Virus record (IMG/VR): IMGVR_UViG_3300013188_000002
Location: 1 to 52,544 of that record
Origin: a virus
Lineage: Duplodnaviria; Caudoviricetes
Direction: 5' to 3' (one strand)
DNA length: 52,544 bases
Shown here: positions 1-41,589 of the stretch, one piece after another
Layout of the letters: each line of letters starts with the position of its first letter
How positions within the stretch are numbered: position 1 is the stretch's first letter
Made by a program: the position numbers and the translations under genes
The notes under the pieces: model-generated
Told to the model about the DNA's origin: nothing
The model's database searches: none
Seen by the model: the letters and a program-made list of their open reading frames with translations, nothing else

Positions 1-1
1 C

Positions 2-370
2 GGAGGCGGCGGAGGCGGAGCAGGCTCAGCAGGATTTTTATCAAACGGCGGAGCAGGCACACAAGGTGACGGCGGATTTGGGCTTAGCAAATCAAACTAC
101 TCGCAGTTTGGCGCATCTGGTGTATTTGCTGGCGGCGGCGGTGGTCATACAGATGGCAGAGCTTCTCCGTTTGTTGGTACTAATACTTCAGGAGGCGCTG
201 GCGGCGGAGGTAATGGCGGGCGGTATGTCACCGGTAGCGGTTCCAGTGACTTAAATGCTACGGCAGGCTCAACTAACACTGGTGGCGGAGGCGGCGGCGC
301 TTACGGAGCCAGTTCTTCACTAGCAGCCGCCGGTGGTTCTGGCGTAGTAATTATTAGGTATATCGAGTAG
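2..370 (+). CDS. C-terminal part of glycine-rich tail fibre/adhesin (5' truncated by window edge)
   Basis: Open frame from nt 2 reads GGGGGGAGSAG...NTGGGGGG...GGSGVVIIRYIE*; GGSGVVIIRY is a typical end of phage Gly-rich fibre domains. Not in the ORF track. Confidence 0.85.
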   Translation, partial: GGGGGGAGSAGFLSNGGAGTQGDGGFGLSKSNYSQFGASGVFAGGGGGHTDGRASPFVGTNTSGGAGGGGNGGRYVTGSGSSDLNATAGSTNTGGGGGGAYGASSSLAAAGGSGVVIIRYIE

Positions 371-380
371 GGAGAGCAAC

Positions 381-770
381 ATGGCACATTATGCAAAAGT
401 AGTTAACGGCATTGTCGCTCAAGTAATTGTTGCTGAGCCTGAGTTTTTTGATACGTTTGTAGACGATACTCCAGGTGAGTGGGTAAAAACTAGCTATAAT
501 ATGAGAGGCGGAGTTTATTATGATCCAAGCACAAATACTCCTGCAGAAGATCAGTCAGTTATAACAGGTGATGAAGCCAGAGAACGTAAAAATTATGCGT
601 CTATCGGAGATGTTTATGACTCCGCTGCAGATGTTTTTTACAAGCCGCAGCCGTTTGATAGCTGGACATTAAACACAACAAGTTATGTATGGGAGGCACC
701 TGTAGCCTATCCTGATAGCGGCTTCCACCTTTGGAATGAAACAGAACAACGCTGGGATGAGGTGACATAA
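381..770 (+). CDS. Conserved phage protein associated with tail-fibre genes (MAHYAKV...V..VIV type)
   Basis: SD GGGAG upstream; Trp/Pro-rich C-terminus (PQPFDSWTLN..W.AP...W.E....W); lies between two fibre genes. Confidence 0.75.
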   Translation: MAHYAKVVNGIVAQVIVAEPEFFDTFVDDTPGEWVKTSYNMRGGVYYDPSTNTPAEDQSVITGDEARERKNYASIGDVYDSAADVFYKPQPFDSWTLNTTSYVWEAPVAYPDSGFHLWNETEQRWDEVT

Positions 771-1951
771 TGGGCGTAAAAGTAGAAAATAATGCCTTCG
801 GCACGCTAAGTGCTGGGATAACTACTTCTGACACTACTGTCACACTGGACTCAGGTGAAGGCGCACGTTTCCCCACACTTGGCTCGGGCGATTATTTTTA
901 CGCCACGATTGTCGATACCAGCAACAATCTAGAGATTGTAAAAGTCACTGCTAGGTCTACTGACTCTATGACTGTAACTCGTGCGCAAGATGGTACTACA
1001 GCTCGTGCGTTTTCTATTGGTGACCGCTTTGAACTTCGCCCTGTAGCTGCGTTGTTTGAAGATATTGATATTAGAGGTTCTGGAGGTACAATTTCTGGTA
1101 ACGTAGATATAGATTCTTCTGGCGCTGAACCTCTTACTATTACAGGTACAGACGCTACACAAACTCGTGTACAACTTATAAATACAACTAGCGGAGTTGA
1201 CTACACTTACGTCCAAGCAAGGACAGACGCTGGTTCAGGTTATTTTATCCACAACGGTACGGGTCAAGGTAACGGTCTTGCATCTAATGAGACTTATCTA
1301 TGGTCGGATAATGGTAAAATATCTCTTATCCCAAACAGTACTATCGCTAACAAACTAGAAGTAGCTACCAATGGTGATGTTACTGTAAATGGTAAAGTAT
1401 TTGGCGGTGGACTAGTTTTATTAGGTCAATCATCTTGGACTACTAATACTACTGGTGCTAGTTTTGACGTTTTTGACTACACAAAGTATTCGAACTATTT
1501 ACTGACTTGGATTGTAAGTCATTCTCCTGTCTGGGAGCATACATATTTTAGGTTTAGAAATAGTAGTGGAGATATAACTACTGCTAGTGCATACAACGGT
1601 GTAACCGCTTGGTACGGTTCAAGTCAGACTGATGGTCATCCTACTTACAACAGTAGCGGAAACTTTGGAGGATCGCGAAATCATATATGGATGGCCGGTA
1701 ACGGTACGGGATACTCATCACATGGAATGGCTATAATTAGTATTCCTCACAATGGAGCTTATGCTAGAGCTGCTATACGAGGAGATTCTCAACTTGTTTA
1801 CAGGAATAGTACTGTTCACTATTTAGAACAATTTAGCGGCGCACTTTCATTGTCTAATCCCCATACGGCTATAACAGGCTGTTCTGTATTCGGCTCTGGA
1901 GGCAACAGTGAATATGGGTCTGTTGAGATATTCGGAATTGAGAGGGGGTAA
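770..1951 (+). CDS. Tail fibre / receptor-binding protein
   Basis: N-terminal ~95 aa (NNAFGTLSAGIT...EIVKVTARSTD...RAQD.TTARAF.IGDR.ELR) paralogous to 51765 gene; beta-rich S/T/G/N C-terminus. Confidence 0.8.
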   Translation: MGVKVENNAFGTLSAGITTSDTTVTLDSGEGARFPTLGSGDYFYATIVDTSNNLEIVKVTARSTDSMTVTRAQDGTTARAFSIGDRFELRPVAALFEDIDIRGSGGTISGNVDIDSSGAEPLTITGTDATQTRVQLINTTSGVDYTYVQARTDAGSGYFIHNGTGQGNGLASNETYLWSDNGKISLIPNSTIANKLEVATNGDVTVNGKVFGGGLVLLGQSSWTTNTTGASFDVFDYTKYSNYLLTWIVSHSPVWEHTYFRFRNSSGDITTASAYNGVTAWYGSSQTDGHPTYNSSGNFGGSRNHIWMAGNGTGYSSHGMAIISIPHNGAYARAAIRGDSQLVYRNSTVHYLEQFSGALSLSNPHTAITGCSVFGSGGNSEYGSVEIFGIERG

Positions 1952-1953
1952 TT

Positions 1954-2253
1954 ATGGCTGAGCAATATTACCAAATAATAAATGGCGAGCGAGTAGAGAT
2001 TACAGGTGACGACCTTACTGCTAGAAAAGCTGAATGGGCGTCTGAGAACGCACAATCTGATGCTCGGGCATTAGACTTTCTTAGGAACGATCGTAATAAT
2101 TTACTAGCACAATCCGATTGGGTAGTTGTTAGAGCACAAGAAGACGGTACGGCAGTACCAGCAGCTTGGGTCACATACAGGCAAGCACTACGAGATATAA
2201 CTAACACCTATTCAAACGTAGAAGAAGTAGTGTGGCCGGAGAAACCAGAATGA
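1954..2253 (+). CDS. Tail fibre assembly chaperone
   Basis: LR..RN.LL..SDW...W..YRQALRDIT....WP..P motif, directly after fibre gene. Confidence 0.85.
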   Translation: MAEQYYQIINGERVEITGDDLTARKAEWASENAQSDARALDFLRNDRNNLLAQSDWVVVRAQEDGTAVPAAWVTYRQALRDITNTYSNVEEVVWPEKPE

Positions 2254-5066: not shown

Positions 5067-7438
5067 TGGCGTCAGTAAAGCTTACAAAGTTTCTAGGTGA
5101 AGCACCTAAAATTTCATCAGAGCTATTGCCTGACGGCGTGGCTCAAGAAGCATTTAACGTTAAGCTTTATTCAGGCGATTTACTTCCCTACCGCACACCA
5201 AAGGACGTAGACAGTACAGAACGATCTGTAGAAGCTAAAACTTTACACGCTTTGCGCGATCCTGTTACAGATGCTCTTGTGTGGTTATCTTGGACTACTG
5301 ACGTAGATATTGCTGTCGCGTCTGACAGTGATGACAATGCTCAGCGGTTTTACTACACAGGAGACGGAGAGCCTAAAGTATCTGACTATGCTTTAGCTAC
5401 TAGCGGTAGTGAGCCGTATCCTGTGTCTAACGGGTATTATGACCTTGGACTGCCGCTGCCAACTACTAAAGTCACCGTAGCGGCCACATCTTTTACTGTT
5501 GTAAATTCAACACACTATGAACGAGATAGTGGCAATACTGCAACATTTTACGGTAGCACTGCCCACAACTTACGCACAGGTAATATCGTAACTGTTCGTG
5601 ACTTCGGCACATCTGATGAAGCTAAAGGGTTTAACGCTAAGAATGTTGAGGTCACAGTAACAAGTGACAATAACTTTCAGTATTTTAGTTCTGGCGATCA
5701 GGTTGCTAAGACAGCTAACACTACAGGCCGCGCTGACTTGGCCGGTAACACGCAGATCAGAACGTATGTTTACACTTGGGTTACACCGTGGGACGAAGAA
5801 TCTATCCCATCTAACGTATCTAACGAATTATATATTAAAGAAGGCCAGACAGTTACTGTTTCCTCCCTGCCCCAGACTGCACCGACTGGGGACAACTTTA
5901 TCCGTGGCGTTAGGCTGTACCGAAGCGTTGCTTCTGCGTCTGCCACGGATTTCTTTTTACTTGCTACGTTGTGGTTTCCTACAACTGTCGCTGAGTTTTC
6001 GCGTACTAGTAATGTATCTAGCCTTACTTTATCTAAACCCCATAATTTTATTAAAGACGACAGATTCAAATTAAGTGGGTGTTCTGACGCTAGTTTTGAC
6101 ATTACTGACGGTGTAGTAACAGAAGTTGTAGATGATTTTACATTTAAGTATGCGCAGACTGCTACTGATGTAGGGACAACTAATGCATCTGCTGGCACTG
6201 TTTTCCACGATGTGTCTGAATCTTTGGACGACCCTGCTCGATATTGGGGAGATTCTAGCTTTGATTTTACAGATGATTTTCTAGTATCTAGCTTGGATAC
6301 AATTATTCCATCCGAGGAATATGATCCTCCACCTACAAATATGAGAGGCTTGATTGCAGCTCACAATAATATTCTTGTAGGGTTTTTTGGTAATCAGCTG
6401 TGTTTTTCTTTTCCTGATAAACCACATGCGTGGCCCGAAAAATACAGGCTTACGTTCGACGCTGACATTGTAGGTATTGCAGCCGCAGCTGGATATATAC
6501 TTGTTCTCACAGAAGAGTATCCGTTTCAGGTATCAGGTAATGATCCAGCCACAATGGTGTCTGCACGTATTGATACGTTGTATCCGTGTTACTCTAAGAG
6601 ATCTATTGTAAACATGGGCTATGGCGTTGTGTGGTCTACTCACGGCGGACTTGCTACATGGAGTCCTACAACAGGTATTGATCTTATCACTAAGTTTGTC
6701 CACGATTGGGATACATGGAATGAAGCGCTAGATCCAAGTACTATTGTAGGCCATTTCCACGACGGTAAATATTTTGGGTCGCACAGTACTAAGTCATTTA
6801 TTTTTGAGCGTGACGATAAGGTAGGCGGGTTTTTTGTACAAATTCAATATAAGTTTAGTGCAGCGTACTCAGATCCTAAAACTGGCACTATGTATTATAC
6901 TGAAGGTGCTGACGGAGAAATTTACGAGTGGGATAACGAAGGCGAAGTTTTATCCCCTATGGAATGGAAATCTAAAACTATTGTTACCAAAGACTATCTT
7001 AATTTAGGAGCCTTTAGAGTTGTAGCTGACTATGATGCTAGTGCTGAAGAAACCCAGAATATTACTAACTATAACAATAGCCTTGCTAACCTCAATCAAG
7101 TTATCTGGAATAGAAGCCAGCAATTAGCACCGATAAATGGCCCAACGCATTATGTATCTGGTGGTGTAACGTTTACACCAAGTGGTACTCTTAACGCTTT
7201 TACTGTAAACGGCGACCCTCAAACTTCCTATCCTAAAGCTAATACAGGCACACAGCCTGTAACGTTTAGACTTTGGGTAGACAAAAGTCTTGTGTTTCAA
7301 GGTGTAGTTGCAACAAATGATATATTTAGATTGCCTACAGGCTATCGTTCGGATACATTTGAGGTAGGGGTGTCAGGTTCCGCTAGAGTGCGTGCTATAC
7401 ATTTTGGCGAGACGCCCTATGGATTGAGGACATCATAA
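5066..7438 (+). CDS. Tail nozzle / tail tubular (stabilisation) protein
   Basis: 790 aa beta-rich; YVYTWVT..EES.PS and FS....PHAWP motifs; precedes internal virion genes. Confidence 0.75.
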   Translation: MASVKLTKFLGEAPKISSELLPDGVAQEAFNVKLYSGDLLPYRTPKDVDSTERSVEAKTLHALRDPVTDALVWLSWTTDVDIAVASDSDDNAQRFYYTGDGEPKVSDYALATSGSEPYPVSNGYYDLGLPLPTTKVTVAATSFTVVNSTHYERDSGNTATFYGSTAHNLRTGNIVTVRDFGTSDEAKGFNAKNVEVTVTSDNNFQYFSSGDQVAKTANTTGRADLAGNTQIRTYVYTWVTPWDEESIPSNVSNELYIKEGQTVTVSSLPQTAPTGDNFIRGVRLYRSVASASATDFFLLATLWFPTTVAEFSRTSNVSSLTLSKPHNFIKDDRFKLSGCSDASFDITDGVVTEVVDDFTFKYAQTATDVGTTNASAGTVFHDVSESLDDPARYWGDSSFDFTDDFLVSSLDTIIPSEEYDPPPTNMRGLIAAHNNILVGFFGNQLCFSFPDKPHAWPEKYRLTFDADIVGIAAAAGYILVLTEEYPFQVSGNDPATMVSARIDTLYPCYSKRSIVNMGYGVVWSTHGGLATWSPTTGIDLITKFVHDWDTWNEALDPSTIVGHFHDGKYFGSHSTKSFIFERDDKVGGFFVQIQYKFSAAYSDPKTGTMYYTEGADGEIYEWDNEGEVLSPMEWKSKTIVTKDYLNLGAFRVVADYDASAEETQNITNYNNSLANLNQVIWNRSQQLAPINGPTHYVSGGVTFTPSGTLNAFTVNGDPQTSYPKANTGTQPVTFRLWVDKSLVFQGVVATNDIFRLPTGYRSDTFEVGVSGSARVRAIHFGETPYGLRTS

Positions 7439-9135: not shown

Positions 9136-10701
9136 ATGACAACTATCGCTATAAACCCGATGGTAGTATCCGTTAGCCCAAGTGCCGATGCTACCATTTC
9201 TCGTATTCAACCCACTATGCACGGCGGAGGCGGCGGCATTAAGAAAGTTATTGCGGTTGTTGCCGCAGTTGCCATTCCTATTGCAGCCCCGACCATTGCA
9301 GCGTCTATCGGACTTTCAGGTGCGATTGGTGCCGCTATTGGTACCTCAGCCGTTGCAGGCACAATAGGCGCTACAGTAGGTTCCGCGATTGTAGGCGCAG
9401 GACTTGGAGCTATTTCTGCTAAAGTAACAGGCCAAGATGTAAAACGCGGTGCTATTATGGGCGGTCTTAGCGGCGGTATTGCAGGATACTTTAGAGGAGC
9501 GCCTCAAACTCAGGCTACATCTGGTTCAGGCGTTAGCCCTACAGCAGCCGGTGAAGGATCTCAGCTTGGCACAGACCTGAGTAGTAGTTCACAACAGTTT
9601 GGCAATATTGGCCCTGGCGATCCTACTACTTTTGGCCCTGACGCAGTCAATCAGCCTCAAACACTTACAAACCTCAACGCTGGCACAACAGGTGGGGATG
9701 TAGCTTCGCAGCTATCTAACACTACCAACCCAAATATAATACAGACTAGCGCTGGTGGTGCAGGGAATGTAGCCCAAGGTGCGCAGAATCTAGCACAAGG
9801 TGGTGCAAATCTACAAGGTGCAGTAACAGGCACACAGGCAGCTCCTACAGCGCTGAGTCAACTTGGCCCTAACGCTAGCATTGGCGAAAAGTTTGTGGCC
9901 ACTATGAAAGACAGCGGCTCTGCTTTGGTTAATAAGTTTACTGATCCTGAGGCTCTTGCTAACGTTACTATGCAGGCCGGTGGTCAGCTACTTGGTACTG
10001 CACTAGCACCAGATCCAGAGATGCCGCCAGAGCAGCGTGAGCTGCTTGAGATGCGTAAGCAGGAACTTGCGGAGCTTAAACAGAAAGACGAAGCAGCGTT
10101 TAACGCACAGATGGATGCAGCTAAACAGTATCTACAGCAGGCTAAGCAGTATGATCCTACATACATGGCGTTCCAAGCAGCTAACAAAGAAGCCATTGAC
10201 CAGCAGCGTAAGCTGCGTGAGCAGTATCGTAGGGCAGCTCTTAGCGGTGGCCGTGATATTAGTGAAGCTGAAAAACGTCGTATGAGCCTAGATTCTGCGC
10301 GTCAGGTTAGCTCTGAGTATGACCGTGGATTCCAACAAGGTTTGTCAGCTCAGAACAAAGTGACACAAGCCGGTCTGTCTGCGATACCTAACTCAGCGCA
10401 GTTTGCTAACTACACCAACGCACTTCGCACACTACAAAGCGATGAAGGCAGGCTTGCTGAATACTACGCTGGCAAGTCGCAGGGTGCAGCTAAGAACATT
10501 TCTGATCTGTTTTCTAACTTTAACACTGAGACAGGCACAGGCGTTCAATACCAACGGCGCGGCGGGCAGGCTCCCAAAGCTCCTGTAACGAAAGGCGGTC
10601 TTCCTGACTCCGGTATTGAGAAAAAAGGCGGGCTAACTCTACCAGACGAAGACGAGAATGTGACTCCGTTCTACCAACCTGGTCAGTCATACGCGATATA
10701 A
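9136..10701 (+). CDS. Internal virion / DNA ejection protein
   Basis: Gly/Ala-rich hydrophobic N-terminal segments, low-complexity middle, coiled-coil C-terminus; SD GGAGG. Confidence 0.7.
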   Translation: MTTIAINPMVVSVSPSADATISRIQPTMHGGGGGIKKVIAVVAAVAIPIAAPTIAASIGLSGAIGAAIGTSAVAGTIGATVGSAIVGAGLGAISAKVTGQDVKRGAIMGGLSGGIAGYFRGAPQTQATSGSGVSPTAAGEGSQLGTDLSSSSQQFGNIGPGDPTTFGPDAVNQPQTLTNLNAGTTGGDVASQLSNTTNPNIIQTSAGGAGNVAQGAQNLAQGGANLQGAVTGTQAAPTALSQLGPNASIGEKFVATMKDSGSALVNKFTDPEALANVTMQAGGQLLGTALAPDPEMPPEQRELLEMRKQELAELKQKDEAAFNAQMDAAKQYLQQAKQYDPTYMAFQAANKEAIDQQRKLREQYRRAALSGGRDISEAEKRRMSLDSARQVSSEYDRGFQQGLSAQNKVTQAGLSAIPNSAQFANYTNALRTLQSDEGRLAEYYAGKSQGAAKNISDLFSNFNTETGTGVQYQRRGGQAPKAPVTKGGLPDSGIEKKGGLTLPDEDENVTPFYQPGQSYAI

Positions 10702-13357: not shown

Positions 13358-16300
13358 ATGGCAAAAGCAGGACTTAAATCTTTCGGAAGCCCTACACTCA
13401 GCGCGATGGATTTGGAGCCACTAGGCAACCCTTACGATGTTGCACCTGACATCGGGATGGGCAACCTCCTAGGTAGCAGGGAAGCTCTTACTAACGAAGC
13501 AGACAGTGTCTTTAATCAAGCCATGTCTCAGTTCTCTATGCCTGAGATGAAGCGGCCTGCGCCTACTGGCCCTAATGTTCTGTTCGATCCATCAGCTAAC
13601 AAGATGTTTGTAAACGGGTCGTTGTTTGACCTTGACGACGCTGACGCAGCCGTAAAATCCAAAGGTTTTTTAACTGGCCCGCGCCAAGAGCCGCCGTCAG
13701 GCAACTGGCAGCGTGTTACACCTGCTGAATATGGCAGGTACTATAAGTCTATTACTGACCCCACACTTAGCCGTAGATTCTCTGAGAACGTTGATATTGG
13801 TATGGCCAACCTGCGATCTTTGTTTGGCGCAGGTGCTGTATTGCTTGGCGCTGACGAATACGGCCTTGGGGTTATGGAGCGTGCAGATGAAGTTATCCGC
13901 AAAAAATCACCGTTTGCAGGTGAAGCTACAGACATCGGCTTTGGAGATGAAGATCTCGGCCCTGTAGAGTGGTTTGTAGGCGTACTGGGCGCACAAGGCC
14001 CGATGCTTCTTGAGACCATTGCTGCAGCAGGTGTAGGTTTTGTCCTAGGTTCTGCCACTGCAGGGCCAGGTTTGGGTTCCGCAGCAGGTACAGTCGGTGG
14101 CCTGTTTGGTAAGACAGCGTTTAAGAAAGCTGTAAAAGAAGCTGCAGAAGAATATGCAACAATTAAAGCTAGGGACGGCAAGGCAGCGGCCAAAGCCTTC
14201 CTGAAGACTGACAAGGGTAAGACGCTCAAGCGTGCGTCCGGTGCTGCAGGTGCCGTTGGCCTTAGCTATGTCAACAACTTTGGTATTGCATCGTCTGATG
14301 TGTACTCAGAGCTATTGGAGTCAGGCGTAGATGTAAACGATTTTAACGCTAAGATGACTGCACTTACAGCCGCAGTGCCATACGCTGCACTCGATACCAT
14401 CCCTGAGTTTGTCGTAGGTGCTAAGCTTTTTGGTGGGTTGCGTGCAGGATCAAAGGGCGGACGCTTGCGTCGTGGTGCTAAAGGTGCAGGAGTAGGTGCT
14501 GTCTTAGAAGGCACTACTGAAGCAGGCCAAGAAGGCATTATTATGGGTGCAACTAGCGCCTACACTGGACGCGAGTATGAAAGCGATGAGGTACTTAATC
14601 GACTGGTCAACTCCTTTGCCGCAGGCGCAGCTATTGGTGGCACCATTGGTAGTGTTACCAATCTAAAAACCAATAAGCCAGCTGACCTACTACAAGGCAC
14701 GGCTAATGAACAAGAAACACAACAGGATGAAGGCCCAGCGCAGACTGAAATGTTTGCAGAGGACACTGACTTTGGTACTGCTCCTGAGGTTGACCCAGAT
14801 ATAGCCGCACTACGCGCACAAGACGAGGCGCTAAGACAAGAGGTAGTGGCCGATCTTGAGTTGGATAGAGAAAATGAAGCTATTAGGCAGGAGATTGCAG
14901 GTGTGGCAAACATGCCACCAGCACCAGTCATCCCTGCACAACGAGAAGCTGAGATCCAAGAAGAAATAGGTCGCCGTGAGCGGGCAGAAGCCGACCGCCT
15001 AGACAGAACTATGGAGGCAGCGCAGCCTCTTTCTGACCGTACAGGTGGCGTGCAGCCTGACCAAGGTGATTTGTTTGCTCTTGATGGCCCTGCTTATACA
15101 CCCCCACCGGCTCCACCGGCTCCACCAACTCCTCCACAGCCTGTGGATAACGTTGTGGAAAGTATTGAGCAAGTTGCACAACAGCAACCACAAGCACAGC
15201 CAAACTTGTTGCAGCAACGTATGCAAGAAGCAGCGGCAAGACAGCGTGAGCAAGAAGCACAAGCTGAAGCTCGCAGACAGGAAGATGAACGCATAGAACG
15301 GAATAACCGCGAAGTCGAAAACGCACTGGCTTTACAGCAGGCGCAAAACGAAATCGCGGCTTATGAGGCGGAGCAGGCTGGCGTGACGCAGCCCGAACTT
15401 CCTCCCGTGGCAGCTCCGGTACAGACGAATAATCTCCCTACTGTACCAGTTCCTCCTGCTCCGCCTCGCCAGTTAAACTTGTTCCGTGGCCAAGTAAAGC
15501 TACCAAGAATATCTAAAGCGGAACAAAAAGCTATCAACAAAGCTAATCGTCTACGCCGCAAGCAAGAGCAAGAAGCACAGAAGGCAGCTGAAGAAGCAGC
15601 ACGCCCAATGACTCCAGCGGAAGCTCGTGCAGCAGGGCAAGGTATCCTACTTACACAGCGTGGCGAACCGTCAGTTGCTGCACTCAAGGCAGCGGGCACC
15701 GTAGCACCGACAACCACACCAGAACTTGTTCAGACAACACCTGCTGAAGAAGCCGTCGTTGCGCAGCAGCAAGAAATCAACAGGCTCCAGCAACAAGTAC
15801 AGGAGCTTTCTGCAGCTCGTACAGAGGAAAGCAGTTCCGCCGCTGAGTATAAAACTACTAAACAAGAGGAGTTTGACGTTGCTGAGCGCGGAATGCCTGC
15901 GCGAGAGCTTATGGGTCAGTATTGGCAAAATCAATGGAACAACGCTAATTCTATCGCAGAGGTAGATAAAGTTCTTGCCGATATGAAGCAAGTCAGAGAA
16001 GAGGTAACACAAAATGTACAAGAGCAAAGCACAGAAAACGTGGATGGAAGCGAACAGGCCAGACCTAGCGAAGCAGTTCGAAGCGGAAACACCCAAGAAC
16101 GCGCAGCTGCCGCAGTCGTTGAGTCCGAGAAGCGCCTCAGAGAAGCGGAGGATAGCAAGGCAGCTAGCCGCCCTGCGGAAACAGAAGCAGCCGTTCGGGA
16201 AGATAGCGGTCAACAAGGTGTACAGGAAGATAGCGTACAAGGGGGAACTCAGCTAGATCCAGACTCTGAGCAGGCCATCGCCGAAGAGCTAACCTATCAG

Positions 16301-19300
16301 TTTGATTTACAAGAAGCCATAGGGGAGCTACGTGGTATTGCTGTATCCCTGTTGGATTACGCATACTGGGCTGCTGCACCTAGTGGCACAAGTAACGCAG
16401 CAGATGACTACAGAGCTGCGCGGGCCACAGCTAAAGCCTATGTAGATAAAGCGTTTACAGACCCTGAGTATTTTACAGAAGCTCAACTAAAAATCTTAGA
16501 CGAACAGTTTGTTAAGTTTGCTACATATGAAACGGACACCCGCTCGTCTACGCAACCGTGGTTTGAGTATGCTGCACGTCGTGGTCTTGTAGAAAGAATC
16601 GCTAATCCTGACCCAAAGAAAGGTATAAGGATTACAGGTGCGCCGTACGAAAAGATGAGCAAGGCAGCAGCCAAGGCTGCTAACGTATCTCCGGCCCGCA
16701 GTGAAGACACCACAAACCTTAACGAAGCAGCGACAGCAGCTGATGGCAAAGTTACTGGCGGCGGTAGGTATTTCAAGATCGACGACAACACCGAGATCAC
16801 ACAGCCTCTGGATAAGCTGCGTGTAACTGCTATCGCAAAGAACGCTATCCGTAAGCTGAAGACCAAGCCCACTGTGACCGTGGTCAAAGACCAAAACGAT
16901 CTGCGTGAGAACCACCCAGAGCTATTCAAGCGGGCTATGGAGTCTCGTCCTAACGGCGACTTTGAGTTCACACCTGCTGGCGGTTTCTCTGTTGGCGATC
17001 AAGTCATTCTGTTCAGCGATAATATCAAGACCGAGAAGCAGGCTCGCTTCATCATTGCCCACGAAACTATGGGCCACTTTGGTCTGGGTGCTTTCTTAGG
17101 CAAACCGCAGCTAGAAACTGTGATGGATAACATCTATCAAGATGACTCTAGCGTACGAGTGAAAGCTGACCGCCGTATGGAAATGTACGGTGAAAGCAAA
17201 GCCGAAGCAGTTGAAGAAGTCATTGCCAATATGGCAGCTGACCTAGACGCACACCTTATCAAGCGGATCTGGTACGCCATCAAGGATGCTCTTGAGACTA
17301 TGGGCATGGAGTTTGAGGATAGTCTTGCCAGGTATATGCTAAGACAATCACGCAGGAACTTGTTGCAGGGTGGTAGCGGCCTTGTAAGTATGCAAGAGCT
17401 TAGCAAAAACTTAGAAAGTTTAAGAACTGACAACACGTTGGGGCGGTTTAATGTTGTTGACGACACTGCAAATGCCGCATCACGGGCGCTTTCGTCACAT
17501 GCCTACACCAAGCGTGCAGGCGATACAGGCGGACTGAAAGGTCTAGCACAGACATTCAAAAAGATTAAAGATGTAGAGAACATCCGCGACTTTAGTGTAT
17601 GGCTTGGCTCACTGGCTGAAAACGTGCAGTCACTGGACAATGCAGCTACCAGAAGTGACGGCCTGCAGCAGGTGTTTAACATCTTCCAAGCTAGAGCCAA
17701 CCGTTCACGCCGCCACCTCGCGACCTACGAGTCTATGACTTCGTACTCACATCAAGCGTTTAACGGGCCAACGAAAGAAGAACTAGAAAAAGCTGGCGAG
17801 CTTCTTGCCCATGCTGCACTACACAAGCAGGACATGATTACTGATGAGCAAATCAGAGACTTGTCAGTAGAAGTAGGCACTGATCAGAACGGCGATCCGA
17901 TTAAGGTAAGCGATCTCGTGGTTATGGAGAACGGTGTAGCTGGCATCAACCGTGAGCTGTTTGAAGCAGCAGTAGCGGCAGGCAATGTTACACGCGAACA
18001 GTTTGCTCAGGGACTTGCTGTTACTCTGGGCGACCAAGACCAGAAAGTATTTGCTACTCAAACCTATACACCAGCAGAAGCTATCACAGATAACGAGTGG
18101 CGCATCTACACCGAGCAACGCAAAGCAGTAAATCAAGCAGCACTGGATGTTGTTCGGTCTACAGTAGAGGGTGCAATCGCACAGAAAGATGCCACAATCA
18201 GCGGGTTCAAGAAAGCATACCGCATGTCAGACGCAGACACACAAGTCATGCGGCAGGTCATGGATCGGTATGTAGAGCTGTACCAGAAAGATGCACGCCA
18301 AGAAGGTGGAGCGTTCCAGTACAAAACCGAATCCGTAGAGAATGCAAGAGACTTCCTAAGAGAAATCAATCGTGCGCTATTTGTAAAAGACAAAGTGCAA
18401 GACTTCAAGCAAAGCAAAGGCGACGCAGCCAAGTTCCAAGGCCCAGAGTTCCAAGGTATCATTGATGGCCTGGATTCGCTGTCCGACAAAAACTACACAC
18501 AGAGCCAAGCTAACCGCATTACATCAGCTATTGGTAACTTGTACCTGCTGGATGTTCAGGTAGCTAACGCACAGTTTAACGCCAAGCGTACGATTATGAC
18601 ATCGTATGTACCATTTACTCGCCGTGGCGATCATCAGATCCGCCTTGCTGCTTTCAATGAGAATGGCGATATAGTTCAGCTAGATGAAGTTTGGAAAACT
18701 GTACTGCCATACTACCAAGCACAGGGTCGCGCTGATGCCAGAGAGATTGCAGCAAACTTAGACTCTGAGTTTAGCGACAGAGAGTTCAAGATTATGGACG
18801 CCAACGGGGTTGAGCAAACCGTAACCTTCCGAGCTGTGGCGGAGAAGTCTCGTAAAGGCTCAGTTCTAGGGCAGCAATTTAGTCTCAATGACTTCGTCAA
18901 TACATTGGCTCGTCTTGATGTGAACATAAACCCACAAGAACGTGAACGTATTGTGGAAGCTCTGACAGCGCAGACTCAACGTGCTCGTAGAAGTTTGCAG
19001 AGAGCAGGTGTTAGAGGGTGGGATCGTGATGTCATCCGTAGCACCTCAGAATATCTTGAGATGCAGGGCCACATTGCAGGTCAGGCTTTCTATCGCCACC
19101 GTCTCAATAACATCATGCTTACAGACAGCTTCTGGCGCGGTGACTACAAGCGAGTACAAGACTTGTTTGCTGAGACTCAACGAACAGACTTGTCTCCTGA
19201 AAAGCTACGTCAAGCGCAGACTGAGTACGATAAGTATGCCTACATGTATCAGTACATGGCAGGTGATGGTATGCCACAGGCTGTTAACCGCAAAACTGGC

Positions 19301-21100
19301 AAGCCCATGAAGAACCTCGGCAGAGGTGAAGACTACAGAGGCACAGCACTCGGATTACAGCAGTGGTTTGCGGACGCCGCCAACATCAACAACTCAACTG
19401 AGGACTTGTTGTCAGGCGAGACAGGTTCACAGATTAAGATGTGGACAGTTATCGCTCAGCTTGGCGGTAACTTAGCTACAGCCTTTATCAACATGGCTTC
19501 GATGGCCACTCACAGCATCCCATACCTCGGCACATACAACGAGGCTAGAGGCTTCGGTGGCGGATTCGGTTTGCGTAAGTCAGCGTTTGAGATCCAACGT
19601 GCGGCTTTCCAGATGGGTCGCCCTGCTATGGCAGACTTCACCAAGCTCAGAGACCTCATCAATGACGAGGCGGCTCTGCGTAAGGCAGGTCTGACTAGAG
19701 ATGAAGCTATCTTCCTGACAGACGCCACACAAGAAGGTGTTCTACAGGCGGCACAAGCCAATGCTCTGGTCGGTACGGCTAGAGGCGGTATCCACAGCAA
19801 CAAGCTACAGGCAGGTATCAAACTGTGGATGGGAGCGTTCTCTTATACTGAGCAACTTAACCGTAGATCGACAGCACTGGCGGCTTTCCGTCTGCACAAG
19901 CAACGTGCGGTAGCAGGTTCTCCTGAGTTCACAGCCCTACAACAGAAGCGCAACAAGACTCCAGAGGAGACAGAACAGCTTCAGCAAATGGAAGCTAAGA
20001 TGAACGCTGATGCCACTGAGTTCGCGCGTACAGCGGTGAACACATCACAGGGTGAGTACGGTATGTTTAACCGCCCTGAGATGGCTCGTGGTAACATCGG
20101 TCAATACCTGTTTATCTATAAGCAGTTCTCTATCATCACCATCCAGATGATGAAAGGACTCAGCCCTAAGGGTCGAATCGCGTTTGTCTCTATGCTCCTG
20201 CTTGCATCTGGCCTCAAAGGTATGCCATTCGCAGATGACTTGGCAGACTTGATTGATACGCTCTTGCAGTTCTTCGGAATTAAGAAGGCAAGCGTAGAGC
20301 AATATCTTGTGGAGACAATCGGTGAGTTCGCACCTGACATGCCATTCGACATCAACCTGACTAACATCGCAATGCGTGGTGTCCTTGATCAGATCATGGC
20401 AGGTACATTCTCAACACGTTTGGGTATGGGTGATCTTATCCCTCTGACTGGCGCATTCAAAGCAGGTGCTGATACAGGCCGTGAGATTACTAACTTCTTC
20501 GGGCCAGTCTACTCAGGAATTGAAGGCGCAATAGTTACAGCAGGTAACTTTGCTAGATACGGAGCGCAAACAGTCGGGCTAAGAGATGCTACTATGACAT
20601 TCCCTGAAGTACTGCGTGACGCACCAGTGGCAGGTATCAGAGCTTTGACAGACGCTTACACTTACTACGACTCAGGTGTCATCACTAATGCACAAGGTAA
20701 GGTGATTGATCCGTCAGCTAGCACTGCGGACATCCTGTTCAGAGCCGCAGGGTTCTACCCATCTATTGCTACCAAAGAGAATGATGCTGTACGTCTGACT
20801 AAACAGATGGCCGCTTACGCAAAGCAACTGCACGCAGGGTATAAGGATGCCTACGTCAAAGCCTATATAGAGAAAGACTTCTCTCGTATGCTAGACGTCC
20901 GCCAGATGGTTATGGAGTGGAACCTGATTCACCGTGGTACAGAGTTTGAATTGACAGACTTTAGGCAGAAAGCTGATAGAGCCGCTAAAGCCGCCTCAAT
21001 GCCAACTGCTCAACGCTACCTCAAGACTGCGCCTAAGAACGTGCGTGAAGGTATGCGTGAACTGTTGGACATCTACGGATTGAATGACGAGAAACTCTAG
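13358..21100 (+). CDS. Giant internal virion / ejection protein (polyvalent-type) with zincin-like HETMGH motif
   Basis: 2580 aa; N-terminal G/A-rich block (EG.TEA.QE), P/Q/E-rich linker, IAHETMGHFGL...EE, helical C-terminus; last gene of late arm. Confidence 0.8.
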   Translation: MAKAGLKSFGSPTLSAMDLEPLGNPYDVAPDIGMGNLLGSREALTNEADSVFNQAMSQFSMPEMKRPAPTGPNVLFDPSANKMFVNGSLFDLDDADAAVKSKGFLTGPRQEPPSGNWQRVTPAEYGRYYKSITDPTLSRRFSENVDIGMANLRSLFGAGAVLLGADEYGLGVMERADEVIRKKSPFAGEATDIGFGDEDLGPVEWFVGVLGAQGPMLLETIAAAGVGFVLGSATAGPGLGSAAGTVGGLFGKTAFKKAVKEAAEEYATIKARDGKAAAKAFLKTDKGKTLKRASGAAGAVGLSYVNNFGIASSDVYSELLESGVDVNDFNAKMTALTAAVPYAALDTIPEFVVGAKLFGGLRAGSKGGRLRRGAKGAGVGAVLEGTTEAGQEGIIMGATSAYTGREYESDEVLNRLVNSFAAGAAIGGTIGSVTNLKTNKPADLLQGTANEQETQQDEGPAQTEMFAEDTDFGTAPEVDPDIAALRAQDEALRQEVVADLELDRENEAIRQEIAGVANMPPAPVIPAQREAEIQEEIGRRERAEADRLDRTMEAAQPLSDRTGGVQPDQGDLFALDGPAYTPPPAPPAPPTPPQPVDNVVESIEQVAQQQPQAQPNLLQQRMQEAAARQREQEAQAEARRQEDERIERNNREVENALALQQAQNEIAAYEAEQAGVTQPELPPVAAPVQTNNLPTVPVPPAPPRQLNLFRGQVKLPRISKAEQKAINKANRLRRKQEQEAQKAAEEAARPMTPAEARAAGQGILLTQRGEPSVAALKAAGTVAPTTTPELVQTTPAEEAVVAQQQEINRLQQQVQELSAARTEESSSAAEYKTTKQEEFDVAERGMPARELMGQYWQNQWNNANSIAEVDKVLADMKQVREEVTQNVQEQSTENVDGSEQARPSEAVRSGNTQERAAAAVVESEKRLREAEDSKAASRPAETEAAVREDSGQQGVQEDSVQGGTQLDPDSEQAIAEELTYQFDLQEAIGELRGIAVSLLDYAYWAAAPSGTSNAADDYRAARATAKAYVDKAFTDPEYFTEAQLKILDEQFVKFATYETDTRSSTQPWFEYAARRGLVERIANPDPKKGIRITGAPYEKMSKAAAKAANVSPARSEDTTNLNEAATAADGKVTGGGRYFKIDDNTEITQPLDKLRVTAIAKNAIRKLKTKPTVTVVKDQNDLRENHPELFKRAMESRPNGDFEFTPAGGFSVGDQVILFSDNIKTEKQARFIIAHETMGHFGLGAFLGKPQLETVMDNIYQDDSSVRVKADRRMEMYGESKAEAVEEVIANMAADLDAHLIKRIWYAIKDALETMGMEFEDSLARYMLRQSRRNLLQGGSGLVSMQELSKNLESLRTDNTLGRFNVVDDTANAASRALSSHAYTKRAGDTGGLKGLAQTFKKIKDVENIRDFSVWLGSLAENVQSLDNAATRSDGLQQVFNIFQARANRSRRHLATYESMTSYSHQAFNGPTKEELEKAGELLAHAALHKQDMITDEQIRDLSVEVGTDQNGDPIKVSDLVVMENGVAGINRELFEAAVAAGNVTREQFAQGLAVTLGDQDQKVFATQTYTPAEAITDNEWRIYTEQRKAVNQAALDVVRSTVEGAIAQKDATISGFKKAYRMSDADTQVMRQVMDRYVELYQKDARQEGGAFQYKTESVENARDFLREINRALFVKDKVQDFKQSKGDAAKFQGPEFQGIIDGLDSLSDKNYTQSQANRITSAIGNLYLLDVQVANAQFNAKRTIMTSYVPFTRRGDHQIRLAAFNENGDIVQLDEVWKTVLPYYQAQGRADAREIAANLDSEFSDREFKIMDANGVEQTVTFRAVAEKSRKGSVLGQQFSLNDFVNTLARLDVNINPQERERIVEALTAQTQRARRSLQRAGVRGWDRDVIRSTSEYLEMQGHIAGQAFYRHRLNNIMLTDSFWRGDYKRVQDLFAETQRTDLSPEKLRQAQTEYDKYAYMYQYMAGDGMPQAVNRKTGKPMKNLGRGEDYRGTALGLQQWFADAANINNSTEDLLSGETGSQIKMWTVIAQLGGNLATAFINMASMATHSIPYLGTYNEARGFGGGFGLRKSAFEIQRAAFQMGRPAMADFTKLRDLINDEAALRKAGLTRDEAIFLTDATQEGVLQAAQANALVGTARGGIHSNKLQAGIKLWMGAFSYTEQLNRRSTALAAFRLHKQRAVAGSPEFTALQQKRNKTPEETEQLQQMEAKMNADATEFARTAVNTSQGEYGMFNRPEMARGNIGQYLFIYKQFSIITIQMMKGLSPKGRIAFVSMLLLASGLKGMPFADDLADLIDTLLQFFGIKKASVEQYLVETIGEFAPDMPFDINLTNIAMRGVLDQIMAGTFSTRLGMGDLIPLTGAFKAGADTGREITNFFGPVYSGIEGAIVTAGNFARYGAQTVGLRDATMTFPEVLRDAPVAGIRALTDAYTYYDSGVITNAQGKVIDPSASTADILFRAAGFYPSIATKENDAVRLTKQMAAYAKQLHAGYKDAYVKAYIEKDFSRMLDVRQMVMEWNLIHRGTEFELTDFRQKADRAAKAASMPTAQRYLKTAPKNVREGMRELLDIYGLNDEKL
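16014..16256 (+). CDS. Nested out-of-frame small basic protein (M.KSKAQ..WM.A..P..A..F...TP....LP type)
   Basis: GAGGT SD at 16001-16005 before ATG 16014; sequence resembles small stand-alone phage proteins starting MPFKSKAQ (recalled, not searched). Confidence 0.65.
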   Translation: MYKSKAQKTWMEANRPDLAKQFEAETPKNAQLPQSLSPRSASEKRRIARQLAALRKQKQPFGKIAVNKVYRKIAYKGELS

Positions 21101-25644: not shown

Positions 25645-25648
25645 ATCG

Positions 25649-27199
25649 TTACCTCGTTTCTTGTTGTATCAAATCCAGTAACAAGCCTTGTAGTTTCTGC
25701 TTGTTCTTGAGCCGTTCATACATACGGTACTCAACTTCTGTACCTTCTATATGCACAACATTTGACACATGTTTTTTACCAATGCGCTCTATCCGACCAT
25801 TCGCCTGAACGTATTGTTCGTTGCTTGTTACTGGCCCATACCAGACAACCGTAGATGCGGCAGTCAAGGTTAGCCCATGAGCCATAGTCGCAGGGTGCGC
25901 TATCAACACATGTGGTTCTTTGCCATTCTGAAAGTTATGGAATATCTCGTTGCGTTGCTTGGCAGATACCTCGCCATTCACTACACCGACAGACCAATGC
26001 TTTCCTAGCTCTCGCTCCAACATGCGTAACGTGCCTGTTAGTGGCACGAATATAATTACTTTCTGTCCTACTTCATCTATTACCTCCTTCACAGCGTTTA
26101 CTCTTGGGGAACAATCAAGTTCTATGTTGCGGCCATCATCCCCATAGGCCACACCACATGCTATCTGAACAAGTTTCTGTAACTTGACCGCTTCGTTTAC
26201 AGCGGTGATAGTTCCTTCCTCCGCCATCTCGGTTACAAAATGACGTAGCATCTTTGTGTAGTGTTCCTTCTGCTCCTTGGTCATCTCGACCTTGCGTGTC
26301 TGGAACACTGTATCTGGTAAGTCAAAGCACTCATCCCTTGTGTACCTGACAGCAGGTTGCAGGATATGTTTGACAGTATCCACTGACTCTGGTCTTGGTA
26401 TCCACTTCCACTGTCCAATCTTCATCATCACCTGTTCTCTGAACGCAGTGTATGTCTTGGTACAGAACGGACTATCTACTAGCTTTGCTAATGCCCAAGC
26501 ATCTGTCGGATCATTCGGCGTGGGTGTACCTGTCATCAGCCACAAACGTGTTGTGGTGTTCTTTGCCATCCACCTCCTCAAGATCTTGAATCTGTTTGTA
26601 GATGGATTGCGGTAAACAGCGGCCTCGTCAACCACCACTAAGTCAAACATACCAAGGGCTTCCTCTGCTATGATTGGAAAACCATCGTGGTTGATGATAA
26701 AAAAGTCAGCATCTACATGTAGTAGCTTCTTACGTTTAGCCGCAGTGCCATGTAAGGTTACATGCTTACGCTCAGGGAAGCCCATAAAGATACCGTCACC
26801 CCATACACGTTCAAGTGTGGATAACGGGGATATAATTAAGACCTTCTTAACAGAACCTGTTTTCATAAGGTAGTCAGCCGCCCACAGTGCAGACTGTGTC
26901 TTACCAGTTCCAATCTCATTAAGCACCAATGCCCTCTGGTTCATAGTCAAGAACGCAGATGTCATCTTCTGATGCTCGTATGGTGTGAACCTGCCTACCC
27001 AATCATAATAATAAAGTATAGGCGCAGGTGCTTGGATGCCTAGGTTACGCAGAACCTTGACCTCATCCTGTCGGTGCGGTGTCACAACCAAGTTCTTACC
27101 CTTGAAGTTAAGAACCTTCGCAGTTGGTATTGTGTCTAGCACTCTGTTTGGATTAGTAAGGTTAAGTGCCAAAGCCTTTGCTTGCTCTACCACTAACAT
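25649..27199 (-). CDS. SNF2-family (SF2) DNA helicase
   Basis: EIGTGKT, VVDEA, MTGTP, HGLTLT and QANGRIERIG motifs; likely start MLVV at 27199. Confidence 0.92.
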   Translation of the reverse strand: MLVVEQAKALALNLTNPNRVLDTIPTAKVLNFKGKNLVVTPHRQDEVKVLRNLGIQAPAPILYYYDWVGRFTPYEHQKMTSAFLTMNQRALVLNEIGTGKTQSALWAADYLMKTGSVKKVLIISPLSTLERVWGDGIFMGFPERKHVTLHGTAAKRKKLLHVDADFFIINHDGFPIIAEEALGMFDLVVVDEAAVYRNPSTNRFKILRRWMAKNTTTRLWLMTGTPTPNDPTDAWALAKLVDSPFCTKTYTAFREQVMMKIGQWKWIPRPESVDTVKHILQPAVRYTRDECFDLPDTVFQTRKVEMTKEQKEHYTKMLRHFVTEMAEEGTITAVNEAVKLQKLVQIACGVAYGDDGRNIELDCSPRVNAVKEVIDEVGQKVIIFVPLTGTLRMLERELGKHWSVGVVNGEVSAKQRNEIFHNFQNGKEPHVLIAHPATMAHGLTLTAASTVVWYGPVTSNEQYVQANGRIERIGKKHVSNVVHIEGTEVEYRMYERLKNKQKLQGLLLDLIQQETR

Positions 27200-32565: not shown

Positions 32566-32567
32566 AG

Positions 32568-35194: not shown

Positions 35195-35208
35195 AGTTAC
35201 CTCCGTTT

Positions 35209-41528: not shown

Positions 41529-41589
41529 TATTGTTCAAATGTCATCTCGTGACACCTTCATAGTTACCAACCTTAAACCTTCCACGGAT

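What the first reader, a model, noticed from the sequence alone, without database searches (positions are those of the whole stretch)
16001..16256. Hidden gene nested out of frame inside the 2580-aa virion gene
Seen: inside the giant ORF, a +1 frame ORF (16014-16256) has its own SD (GAGGT, 8 nt before the ATG; the same GAGGTAAC context precedes real genes at 25644 and 32565). It encodes MYKSKAQKTWMEANRPDLAKQFEAETPKNAQLP...RRIARQLAALRKQK, a basic, protein-like sequence. The outer frame here is low-complexity (NVQEQSTENVDGSEQARPS...). Recalled: small stand-alone phage proteins begin MPFKSKAQ..(W/F)M.A..P..AK....TP...LP, and giant phage virion proteins often contain [DN]A[IV]QEQST, which is the same DNA read in the other frame. 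Inference: the linker of these giant ejection proteins may commonly host an unannotated overprinted gene, possibly a DNA-binding or core protein.
Basis: partly seen in the sequence, partly recalled or inferred. Interest (0 to 1): 0.85.

Follow-up and report, generated by a model that had tools for sequence, protein, structure and literature searches.

The report
Conserved small gene hidden inside giant gene
An 80-codon gene for a small basic protein sits out of frame inside a phage's 2580-codon virion-protein gene, is conserved across dozens of related uncultured phages, and shows that gene callers miss real genes nested in large ones.

Summary
The window is a 97%-complete uncultured phage genome. 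An ATG-started 80-codon ORF (16014-16256) lies in the +1 frame of the 2580-codon giant ORF (13358-21100), behind GAGGT.

It is not a chance ORF. A scan keyed only on the giant protein's C-terminal domain gave 48 loci that reach this place. 42 carry a homologue of the small ORF, 41 of them at this place in the +1 frame.

Among 43 distinct nested copies, 40 start with ATG and 3 with GTG. 40 of 42 have a Shine-Dalgarno 5-mer, against 2.2% of control ATGs.

Selection acts on the inner frame: pN/pS is 0.42 inner and 1.47 outer. A control stretch of the giant gene gives the reverse, 0.40 outer and 1.02 in +1. The outer frame stays open only through particular synonymous codons.

Stand-alone homologues exist, and many of them match phrog_1375.

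Five of the six loci without this ORF carry an unrelated small ORF (phrog_2423) at the same place, with the same selection signature. The place therefore behaves as an exchangeable slot.

Translation and function are not shown. I infer independent internal initiation of a small basic late or virion-associated protein.

The parts
13358..21100 (+). Giant ORF of 2580 aa. It is the last gene of the plus-strand structural block, and its C-terminal part is a PLxRFG domain.
   Evidence: One search gives the ORF. One search matches NF032893 at E 4.4e-41, 141 bits against a cut-off of 100. One search matches phrog_11358 at E 1.1e-42. The upstream neighbours are an internal virion protein (phrog_511) and an 878-aa protein with a weak SLT match (below the cut-off).
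14800..16360 (+). Approximate extent of the low-complexity linker of the giant protein (about aa 480-1000) that holds the nested ORF. The borders are rough.
   Evidence: In one search the share of A/E/Q/P/S/G/K/R/D is 0.71-0.76 in aa 501-800 and 901-1000 (0.65 in aa 801-900), against 0.50-0.67 elsewhere. In one search the N-terminal homology to relatives ends near aa 420-480.
16001..16008 (+). GAGGTAAC, which holds a Shine-Dalgarno-like GAGGT 8 nt before the ATG.
   Evidence: One search finds an SD 5-mer at -17..-4 in 40 of 42 distinct nested copies, against 2.2% of 5716 control ATGs.
16005..16007 (+). TAA stop in the inner frame, two codons before the ATG.
   Evidence: It excludes an N-terminal extension. 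It also leaves only two codons for any frameshift that would join the outer frame to the inner one.
16014..16256 (+). Nested +1 ORF of 80 aa plus the TAG stop (P0001).
   Evidence: Conservation is shown.
16014..16121 (+). Conserved N-terminal domain (residues 1-36), predicted as a helical hairpin followed by an extended T-P...L-P stretch.
   Evidence: Searches give the alignments. One search gives AF2 block means of pLDDT of 90-96 over residues 1-50, with helices at 5-14 and 16-25. One search gives inner-frame pN/pS of 0.42.
16122..16253 (+). Basic C-terminal tail (residues 37-80), variable in length and sequence between clades.
   Evidence: Searches show copies of 47-98 aa. One search gives a median pI of 10.9 for the whole inner proteins.

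Best explanation
The ORF at 16014-16256 is a real protein-coding gene carried in the +1 frame inside the giant virion-protein gene.

Shown:
- Its start codon, ribosome-binding site and amino-acid sequence are conserved across a clade of uncultured phages.
- Selection acts on its frame, while the giant frame over the same bases is only kept open.
- It belongs to a family that exists as stand-alone small genes in other phages.

Inferred:
- On the late mRNA, most ribosomes read through the giant ORF. Its product here is a tolerant, acidic, low-complexity linker.
- Other ribosomes start on their own at the internal SD/ATG and make an 80-aa basic protein, a helical hairpin plus a basic tail.
- The giant gene's linker was laid over a pre-existing small gene.
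- The place now behaves as a slot whose occupant can be exchanged by recombination between giant genes.

Guess: the protein acts late, with or in the virion, for example on DNA or on the ejection proteins.
For: 1. An ascertainment that did not depend on the small ORF. Loci were fetched with the giant protein's C-terminal domain only (91 relatives, 80 kept). 48 reach the place. 42 have an HMM hit to the small-ORF family. 41 of these are at the place, 3.2-4.5 kb upstream of the C-terminal domain, in the +1 frame of the giant frame; one of the 41 starts at a contig end. The remaining one, L051, sits in a separate N-terminal-module gene.

2. Start signals. 43 distinct nested copies start with ATG (40) or GTG (3). 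An SD 5-mer is present in 40 of 42, against 2.2% of 5716 other ATGs in the same giant ORFs.

3. Selection.
- Over 35 codons, amino-acid identity is higher in the inner frame in 44 of 45 pairs, mean 0.61 against 0.41.
- On a 24-codon core with 903 pairs, NG86 gives inner pN/pS 0.42 (pN<pS in 894 pairs) and outer 1.47 (pN<pS in 102 pairs).
- Pairwise differences per inner codon position are 0.371, 0.242 and 0.460, so the outer third position is the least variable.
- The control on 308 C-terminal columns with 703 pairs gives outer 0.40 (702 pairs) and +1 frame 1.02 (286 pairs).

4. Both frames are kept. With random synonymous codons for the inner proteins, the outer frame stays open with mean P = 0.002. 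That predicts 0.1 of 43 open; 43 are observed. The stand-alone copies have 2 and 6 stops in that frame.

5. Stand-alone relatives.
- Of 37 phmmer hits at E<=1e-3, 36 are proteins of 47-191 aa with the same N-terminal motif.
- 9 of 10 tested match phrog_1375.
- L016 and L017 carry stand-alone genes packed among other genes.
- Weak matches in cultured phages are Barnyard gp9, FlowerPower gp48 and an unannotated stretch of P-RSP2.

6. An independent replicate. An unrelated small ORF (phrog_2423, E 6e-8) fills the same place in 5 of the 6 remaining loci. It is nested in the +1 frame in 23 of 23 loci found with it. Its inner pN/pS is 0.37 (136 of 136 pairs) and the outer is 1.67 (6 of 136).

7. The window itself. 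A TAA lies two codons before the ATG. The RNA around the start is not more folded than shuffles (z +1.14).
Against: - There is no direct evidence of translation. No Ribo-seq, mass spectrometry or reporter data were available.
- P0001 itself matches no Pfam, PHROG or NCBIfam model. It has no significant tblastn match in 50,697 phage records. Its link to phrog_1375 runs through intermediates.
- The window's own copy is atypical. It starts M-Y-K and lacks the proline that most copies have, and its SD is the weaker GAGGT.
- The gene is not universal. One close relative (L053) has neither nested ORF. Five genomes without family 1 have no copy elsewhere (0 of 5; positive control 5 of 5). Five cultured phages with distant giant genes have none.
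- Pair counts are not independent, because the copies share ancestry. NG86 was not made for overlapping frames, so the two ratios depend on each other.
- The first set of loci was found with patterns from the ORF itself, so its 17 of 17 intact starts is biased.
- The function is a guess. Fold searches gave only single-helix matches (best Z 3.4) and uncharacterised phage proteins.
Confidence: 0.85

Rival explanations
1. The inner frame is made not by its own initiation but by a programmed +1 frameshift from the giant ORF. That would give a truncated N-terminal module with the small peptide as its tail.
For: The inner frame is +1 to the outer frame. In some relatives the inner frame is open for 16-163 codons before the start codon: 16 of 42 have more than 12 codons. 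SD-like sequences are known to stimulate +1 shifts, as in prfB (recalled, not tested).
Against: - A start codon sits at the homologous position in 43 of 43 distinct copies, with a properly spaced SD in 40 of 42.
- In the window a TAA lies two codons upstream, and 26 of 42 copies have 12 codons or fewer there.
- Stand-alone homologues begin at exactly this methionine.
- I noted no conserved zero-frame stop or slippery site, but I made no systematic search for one.
Confidence: 0.05
2. The stretch is conserved as a nucleic-acid element, such as an RNA structure, a pause site or a packaging or regulatory signal. The open +1 frame would be a by-product that is never translated.
For: There is no direct evidence of translation. 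An internal SD could act as a pause or coupling signal for the giant ORF; this is speculation.
Against: - The substitution pattern is that of a protein. The inner third positions vary most and the inner second positions least.
- Homologues are free-standing genes in unrelated genome contexts.
- An unrelated sequence with the same coding signature fills the same place.
- The start region folds no better than shuffles.
- No plus-strand promoter-like or terminator-like site lies nearby.
Confidence: 0.04
3. The giant ORF is not one gene. The real genes would be an N-terminal module, the small gene and a C-terminal module, and the outer frame would merely happen to run on across the small gene.
For: In L051 the N-terminal module is a separate gene. 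It ends 45 codons after the nested ORF and is separated from the C-terminal module by five ORFs. The outer frame shows no amino-acid constraint over the overlap (pN/pS 1.47).
Against: Keeping the outer frame open across the small ORF needs special synonymous codons. The expectation is 0.1 of 43 open, and 43 are observed. The same holds for the second family, where 23 of 23 lie within an open frame of 966-2878 codons. Even in L051 the small ORF is fully inside the outer ORF.
Confidence: 0.04
4. It is a chance ORF in a low-complexity, stop-poor stretch.
For: Other 80-190-codon ORFs overlap the giant gene on both strands.
Against: All the comparative results above speak against it. Within the window's giant ORF, only this ORF and one 37-codon TTG ORF combine an SD, a start codon and 30 or more codons in the other two forward frames.
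Confidence: 0.01

Closest known systems
phiX174 gene E nested in gene D (passages of the review PMC8227390 read); lambda Rz1 inside Rz (recalled, no call)
   Same: A small gene lies wholly inside a larger one, on the same strand, out of frame, with its own start signals.
   Different: In those textbook cases the nested gene is regarded as the young, overprinted one (recalled). Here the nested gene belongs to a widespread family with free-standing members, and the outer frame is the unconstrained one. The nested product is not a lysis lipoprotein: it has 0 Cys, so no lipobox. The host gene is a 2580-codon virion protein, and the place holds either of two unrelated genes in different relatives.
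ORFs embedded out of frame in mycobacteriophage Patience genes 91 and 20, found by mass spectrometry (PMC4324244, passages read)
   Same: [quoted passage not shown]
   Different: [quoted passage not shown] Here conservation and selection are strong, and peptides are lacking.
phrog_1375, small phage proteins of unknown function, for example Barnyard gp9
   Same: They share the N-terminal motif and the small, basic make-up. 9 of 10 stand-alone relatives match the profile at E 6.6e-6 to 4e-3. Barnyard gp9 matches P0016 at E 6e-3.
   Different: P0001 itself does not match the profile. The known members are free-standing genes, and no function is known for them.
PLxRFG-domain giant virion proteins of F116-like and other phages (NF032893)
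   Same: The C-terminal domain of the host gene matches at E 4.4e-41. tblastn finds 44 phage records at 24-26% identity.
   Different: Five such cultured phages (Y7, F116, Y11, 8P, Mel-JY34) show no nested family-1 ORF; the best E is 0.39.
Out-of-frame homing endonuclease gene inside the cyanobacterial dnaX intein (bioRxiv 10.64898/2026.09.14.751524; search listing and start of abstract only)
   Same: A gene of a pre-existing family is carried out of frame within a dispensable segment of a host gene.
   Different: That case involves a mobile selfish element. Here there is no sign of an endonuclease or intein, and I did not read that paper's text.

Membership tests
Same-strand, fully nested, out-of-frame overlapping gene pair | Both frames stay open over the overlap in relatives. 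| tested here: met
   expects 0.1 of 43 open by chance and observes 43.
Same-strand, fully nested, out-of-frame overlapping gene pair | The nested ORF has its own conserved start codon and ribosome-binding site. | tested here: met
   40 ATG and 3 GTG among 43 copies, and an SD in 40 of 42 against 2.2% of controls.
Same-strand, fully nested, out-of-frame overlapping gene pair | Purifying selection acts on the nested frame. | tested here: met
   with the control. NG86 is only approximate for overlapping frames.
Same-strand, fully nested, out-of-frame overlapping gene pair | The nested product is shown to be made. | not testable with these tools
   No Ribo-seq or proteomics was available.
phrog_1375 (small phage proteins, function unknown) | The protein matches the family profile. 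| tested here: not met
   One search gives no PHROG at E<=10 for P0001. I therefore call it related to this family, not a member by profile.
phrog_1375 (small phage proteins, function unknown) | Significant similarity to proteins that do match the profile. | tested here: met
   links P0001 to P0016 at E 9.4e-6, among others. One search matches 9 of 10 such proteins to phrog_1375.
PLxRFG domain-containing protein (NF032893), for the host gene | A score above the curated cut-off. | tested here: met
   141.1 bits against a cut-off of 100.
Rz1-type o-spanin (the classic nested phage gene) | A lipoprotein signal with a lipobox cysteine. | tested here: not met
   One search finds no cysteine in the 80-aa product.
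Programmed +1 frameshift product | The inner frame is open upstream to a shift site, with no need for its own start. | tested here: not met
   In the window a TAA lies two codons before the ATG. A start codon is kept in 43 of 43 copies. For relatives with long open upstream stretches the test is inconclusive.

The most novel reading that the evidence does not exclude
The giant ejection-protein gene arose by reading through a pre-existing small gene, a reverse form of overprinting. The place now works as an exchangeable slot. Unrelated small basic proteins ride in the +1 frame of the disordered linker and are swapped between phages by recombination. They are made in step with the giant protein and act on it, for instance by binding the acidic linker that the very same bases encode in the other frame, or by travelling with it into the virion and the host.
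Probability: 0.2. Interest if true: 0.9.

Novelty: new variant of a known kind. Interest (0 to 1): 0.8.

Why it matters
Nested out-of-frame genes are textbook material for tiny phages, but they are normally discarded when large double-stranded-DNA phage genomes are annotated.

Here a nested gene is conserved in dozens of uncultured phage genomes inside one of their largest genes, and it carries a clean, controlled selection signature. Two unrelated small-protein families alternate at the same place.

- This gives a concrete, testable case of dual coding in which the nested gene is the old one and the host gene's linker is the tolerant overlay.
- It suggests that disordered linkers of giant virion proteins are places to look for hidden genes.
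- It assigns a genomic home, and hence late co-expression with ejection proteins, to two PHROG families of unknown function.

Tried and rejected
**Family searches.** Pfam, PHROGs and NCBIfam on P0001 gave nothing. Pfam on 10 stand-alone relatives gave only sub-threshold, unrelated matches. Pfam on the second family gave nothing.

**Searches of cultured phage records.**
- tblastn of P0001 found 6 records at E 1-9, none credible.
- blastn of 15400-17000 found no match.
- tblastn of the L016 copy found 1 record.
- tblastn of the 471-aa window protein, to name the phage group, found no match.

**Structure.** The AF2 model is confident for residues 1-50. Foldseek against PDB gave 0 matches. BFVD gave only uncharacterised small phage proteins at E 0.03 or worse. 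VIA-align wide gave a best Z of 3.4, single helices only. A PDB profile search gave two chance-level rows at E 0.11. No function follows from any of this.

**P0012.** This 2303-aa hit is a repetitive protein without the motif. I treated it as spurious and left it out of the family alignment and the HMM.

**HExxH motif.** I looked for one in the giant protein and there is none.

**Large ORFs of L013/L014 and L015.** I asked whether they are relatives of the window's giant gene. BLASTP of the N-terminal parts found no hit. hhalign of the last 600 aa gave a probability below 1%. L013 matches phrog_6651 'internal virion protein', and L015 matches nothing. I left both out of the tree.

**Tree.** The careful search did not finish within the time limit. 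The quick tree, with midpoint root and SH-aLRT support only, was used. L133 sits on a very long branch.

**Promoter scan.** No plus-strand site was found near the ORF.

**Literature.** Six full-text searches found no description of a gene nested in a giant phage virion gene or of this protein family. Supplements were closed, and subscription journals are not covered.

**Not used.** Complex prediction (I claim no binding), the look-up of sequencing runs and read laying (RNA reads would not show translation), and scans of metagenome contigs and genome contigs.
Full report
**What is there.** The window is a whole IMG/VR virus record of 52,544 bases, estimated 97% complete.

On the plus strand it carries a structural block:
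- terminase, portal-like and major head genes near the end of the record;
- a tail fibre gene, an internal virion protein (phrog_511) and an 878-aa protein with a weak SLT match near the start.

The last gene of this block is a 2580-codon ORF at 13358-21100. Its C-terminal part is a PLxRFG domain (NF032893, E 4.4e-41, 141 bits against a cut-off of 100; phrog_11358, E 1.1e-42). Replication genes lie on the minus strand.

Inside the giant ORF, in its +1 frame, an ATG at 16014 opens an 80-codon ORF that ends with TAG at 16254-16256. GAGGT lies 8 nt upstream. A TAA in the inner frame lies two codons before the ATG. The nested ORF covers outer codons 886-967, within a low-complexity stretch of the giant protein. 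The inner product is basic and the outer peptide over the same bases is acidic.

The octamer GAGGTAAC occurs five times in the window against 1.07 expected. By the coordinates, each of the other four copies lies just before the ATG of a minus-strand ORF.

**Is it more than chance?** The small protein matches no Pfam, PHROG or NCBIfam model and nothing credible in 50,697 phage records. Large protein collections gave more.
- Five called proteins are 71-96% identical over the full length, or 76% over 64% of the query. They align with 33 invariant columns.
- A full HMMER pass over 1.84 billion representatives gave 37 hits at E<=1e-3.
- 36 of these are proteins of 47-191 aa with the same N-terminal motif, most of them beginning with it. 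One, P0012, is a repetitive protein that I regard as spurious.
- 9 of 10 such stand-alone proteins match phrog_1375, a family of unknown function, at E 6.6e-6 to 4e-3.

**Nested copies in relatives.** A scan of viral contigs with patterns from the small protein gave 17 loci. In 15 of them the ORF lies in the +1 frame of an open frame of 1101-2852 codons (five of them cut by a contig end). In L016 and L017 it is a free-standing gene packed among other genes.

That scan can only find intact copies. I therefore made a second scan with the giant protein's C-terminal domain alone (91 relatives, 80 kept, 41-68% identity).
- 48 of the 80 loci extend far enough upstream to cover the place.
- 42 of the 48 have a hit to a profile of the small family.
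- 41 of the 42 hits lie 3.2-4.5 kb upstream of the C-terminal domain in the +1 frame of the giant frame; one of them starts at a contig end.
- In L051 the hit lies in a separate N-terminal-module gene.

Pooling all loci gives 45 distinct ORF sequences, of which 43 are nested.

**Start signals.** The 43 nested copies start with ATG (40) or GTG (3) at the homologous codon. 40 of 42 with enough upstream sequence have an SD 5-mer at -17 to -4, against 2.2% of 5716 other ATGs inside the same giant ORFs. By the same crude criterion, 19 of 39 long ORFs of the window have an SD. The upstream bases differ between clades while the SD is kept. The outer-frame amino acids there are therefore not what is conserved.

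**Which frame is selected?**
- Over 35 codons in 10 diverse nested copies, the inner peptide is more conserved than the outer in 44 of 45 pairs, mean identity 0.61 against 0.41. In the most distant pairs the values are about 0.5 against 0.1-0.2.
- On a 24-codon ungapped core in 43 copies (903 pairs), differences per inner codon position are 0.371, 0.242 and 0.460. The outer third position, which is the inner second, is thus the least variable.
- NG86 on the same core gives pN/pS 0.42 in the inner frame (pN<pS in 894 pairs) and 1.47 in the outer frame (pN<pS in 102 pairs).
- The control uses 308 ungapped columns of the C-terminal domain in 38 loci (703 pairs). It gives the reverse: 0.40 for the giant frame (702 pairs) and 1.02 for its +1 frame (286 pairs).

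These pair counts share ancestry, and NG86 is only approximate for overlapping frames. Even so, the reversal between the overlap and the control is large.

**Is the outer frame also kept?** I recoded each inner protein with random synonymous codons drawn from the giant gene's own usage. The outer frame then stays open with mean probability 0.002 (maximum 0.042). That predicts 0.1 of 43 open, and all 43 are open. The two free-standing copies have 2 and 6 stops in that frame. So the overlap is truly dual-coding. The inner frame is constrained as a protein, and the outer frame is constrained to stay open.

**A second occupant of the same place.** Six of the 48 loci lack the family. Five genomes among them have no copy anywhere (0 of 5, three of them at least 98% complete). 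The same search finds the family in 5 of 5 known carriers.
- In five of the six loci, the same place in the +1 frame holds a different ORF of 58-61 codons with an SD and ATG or GTG. It matches phrog_2423, again of unknown function (E 6.4e-8 and 1e-7), and no Pfam family.
- A scan with this second family found 23 loci. In all 23 it is nested in the +1 frame of an open frame of 966-2878 codons.
- Its inner pN/pS is 0.37 (136 of 136 pairs) and the outer is 1.67 (6 of 136).
- The sixth locus, L053, has neither ORF. Its DNA matches L057 closely up to the SD and again after the stop, with an unrelated shorter segment between, and the SD and ATG are gone.

On a quick tree of the C-terminal domain (54 rows; L013 and L015 left out), short family-1 carriers and family-2 carriers are interleaved. 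The well-supported branches force at least three changes of the family-2 label. L053 sits among near-identical family-2 carriers. The careful tree search did not finish and the root is arbitrary. I read this only as evidence that the occupant has been exchanged more than once, most simply by recombination between giant genes.

**Other hosts and contexts.** The family-1 ORF is also nested in large ORFs that I could not relate to the window's giant gene. These are L013/L014 (1535 codons, phrog_6651 'internal virion protein', E 3.3e-13) and L015 (2290 codons, no match).

Free-standing copies lie mostly among late genes:
- between the major head gene and tail genes in L016;
- between recombination/HNH genes and an endolysin-like gene in L017;
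- in Barnyard, between gp7 and the head protease genes;
- in FlowerPower, just before the holin;
- in P-RSP2, in an unannotated gap (these tblastn matches are weak, E 4e-3 to 3e-2).

Five cultured phages with distant PLxRFG giant genes have no such ORF.

**How it most likely works.**

Shown by sequence: an internal SD and start codon, a protein-level constraint on the +1 frame, and an outer frame kept open but free to vary.

Inferred:
- On the late transcript, ribosomes that started at 13358 read through and make the giant protein, whose linker tolerates almost any acidic, low-complexity sequence.
- Other ribosomes bind the internal SD and make the 80-aa protein.
- No plus-strand promoter-like site lies nearby, and the start region is not more structured than shuffles. 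This fits expression from the same mRNA, though only weakly.

A frameshift fusion is unlikely. The start codon is always kept, and in the window a stop lies two codons upstream.

The family is widespread and free-standing elsewhere, whereas the outer frame here is unconstrained. I therefore infer that the giant gene's linker was laid over an older small gene, not the reverse. L051, where the N-terminal module is a separate gene ending 45 codons after the nested ORF, may be a related architecture.

**Function.** The AF2 model built on 47 sequences has mean pLDDT 83. It shows helices at 5-14 and 16-25, an extended conserved stretch, then a basic helix at 41-57. The median pI of the nested copies is 10.9. 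No fold or sequence search gave a functional relative.

From the basic tail, the late or structural neighbourhoods and the repeated association with internal virion protein genes, I guess at a small late protein that binds nucleic acid or an acidic partner, possibly packaged with the ejection proteins. This is a guess, with perhaps one chance in three.

**Novelty.** Nested out-of-frame genes are known in phages. phiX174 E in D is described in the review PMC8227390 (passages read). Embedded ORFs with peptides, said by the authors to be generally not conserved, occur in phage Patience (PMC4324244, passages read). Rz1 in Rz is recalled.

Six literature searches found no report of a gene nested in a giant virion-protein gene or of this family. 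Supplements and subscription journals were not covered.

Three things are new here:
- the scale and cleanness of the conservation;
- a nested gene that is the older partner;
- a slot that holds either of two unrelated families.

I rate it a new variant of a known kind.

Noticed in passing
L057 6033-6215; L033 6126-6302; also L038, L058, L060 and L111-L133: A second, unrelated small ORF of 58-61 aa (phrog_2423) is nested in the +1 frame at the same place of homologous giant genes. It shows the same inner-frame selection signature.
   Followed up: yes
L053, about 6060-6200, compared with L057 and L058: A close relative lacks any nested ORF. The segment between the SD and the end of the nested gene is replaced by a shorter unrelated sequence, the flanks are near-identical, and the giant frame is still open.
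   Followed up: partly
L051 3-1856 and 5843-11722: The N-terminal module of the giant protein is a separate gene with the nested ORF near its 3' end. Five other ORFs lie between it and a 1959-codon gene for the C-terminal part.
   Followed up: partly
L013 8110-12714 (nested ORF 9995-10135); L015 7018-13887 (nested ORF 9992-10144): The same small-gene family is nested in the +1 frame of large ORFs that show no detectable relation to the window's giant gene. One of them matches phrog_6651 'internal virion protein'.
   Followed up: partly
window 25648-25655, 32567-32574, 34346-34353 and 35196-35203 (minus strand) and 16001-16008 (plus strand): The octamer GAGGTAAC occurs 5 times against 1.07 expected. 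Every copy lies 1-5 nt before a start codon, so it looks like this phage's preferred ribosome-binding context.
   Followed up: partly
L108 4001-4096 (Prochlorococcus phage P-RSP2, HQ332139.1 6939-7034): A weak match (E 4e-3) to the stand-alone small-protein family falls in a stretch with no annotated gene on that strand. It may be a missed small gene in a cultured cyanophage.
   Followed up: no
window 13358-14800, compared with the 521-aa ORF at 9136-10701: The 521-aa ORF gives a weak, sub-threshold glycine-zipper match in Pfam. The giant protein's N-terminal module is also rich in G/A runs, which may be membrane-active segments of ejection proteins.
   Followed up: no
window 1-2253 and 40143-52544: The structural block runs off the end of the record and resumes at its start: terminase, portal-like and head genes at the end, the tail fibre gene at the start. 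This is what a circularly permuted or arbitrarily opened genome would show.
   Followed up: no
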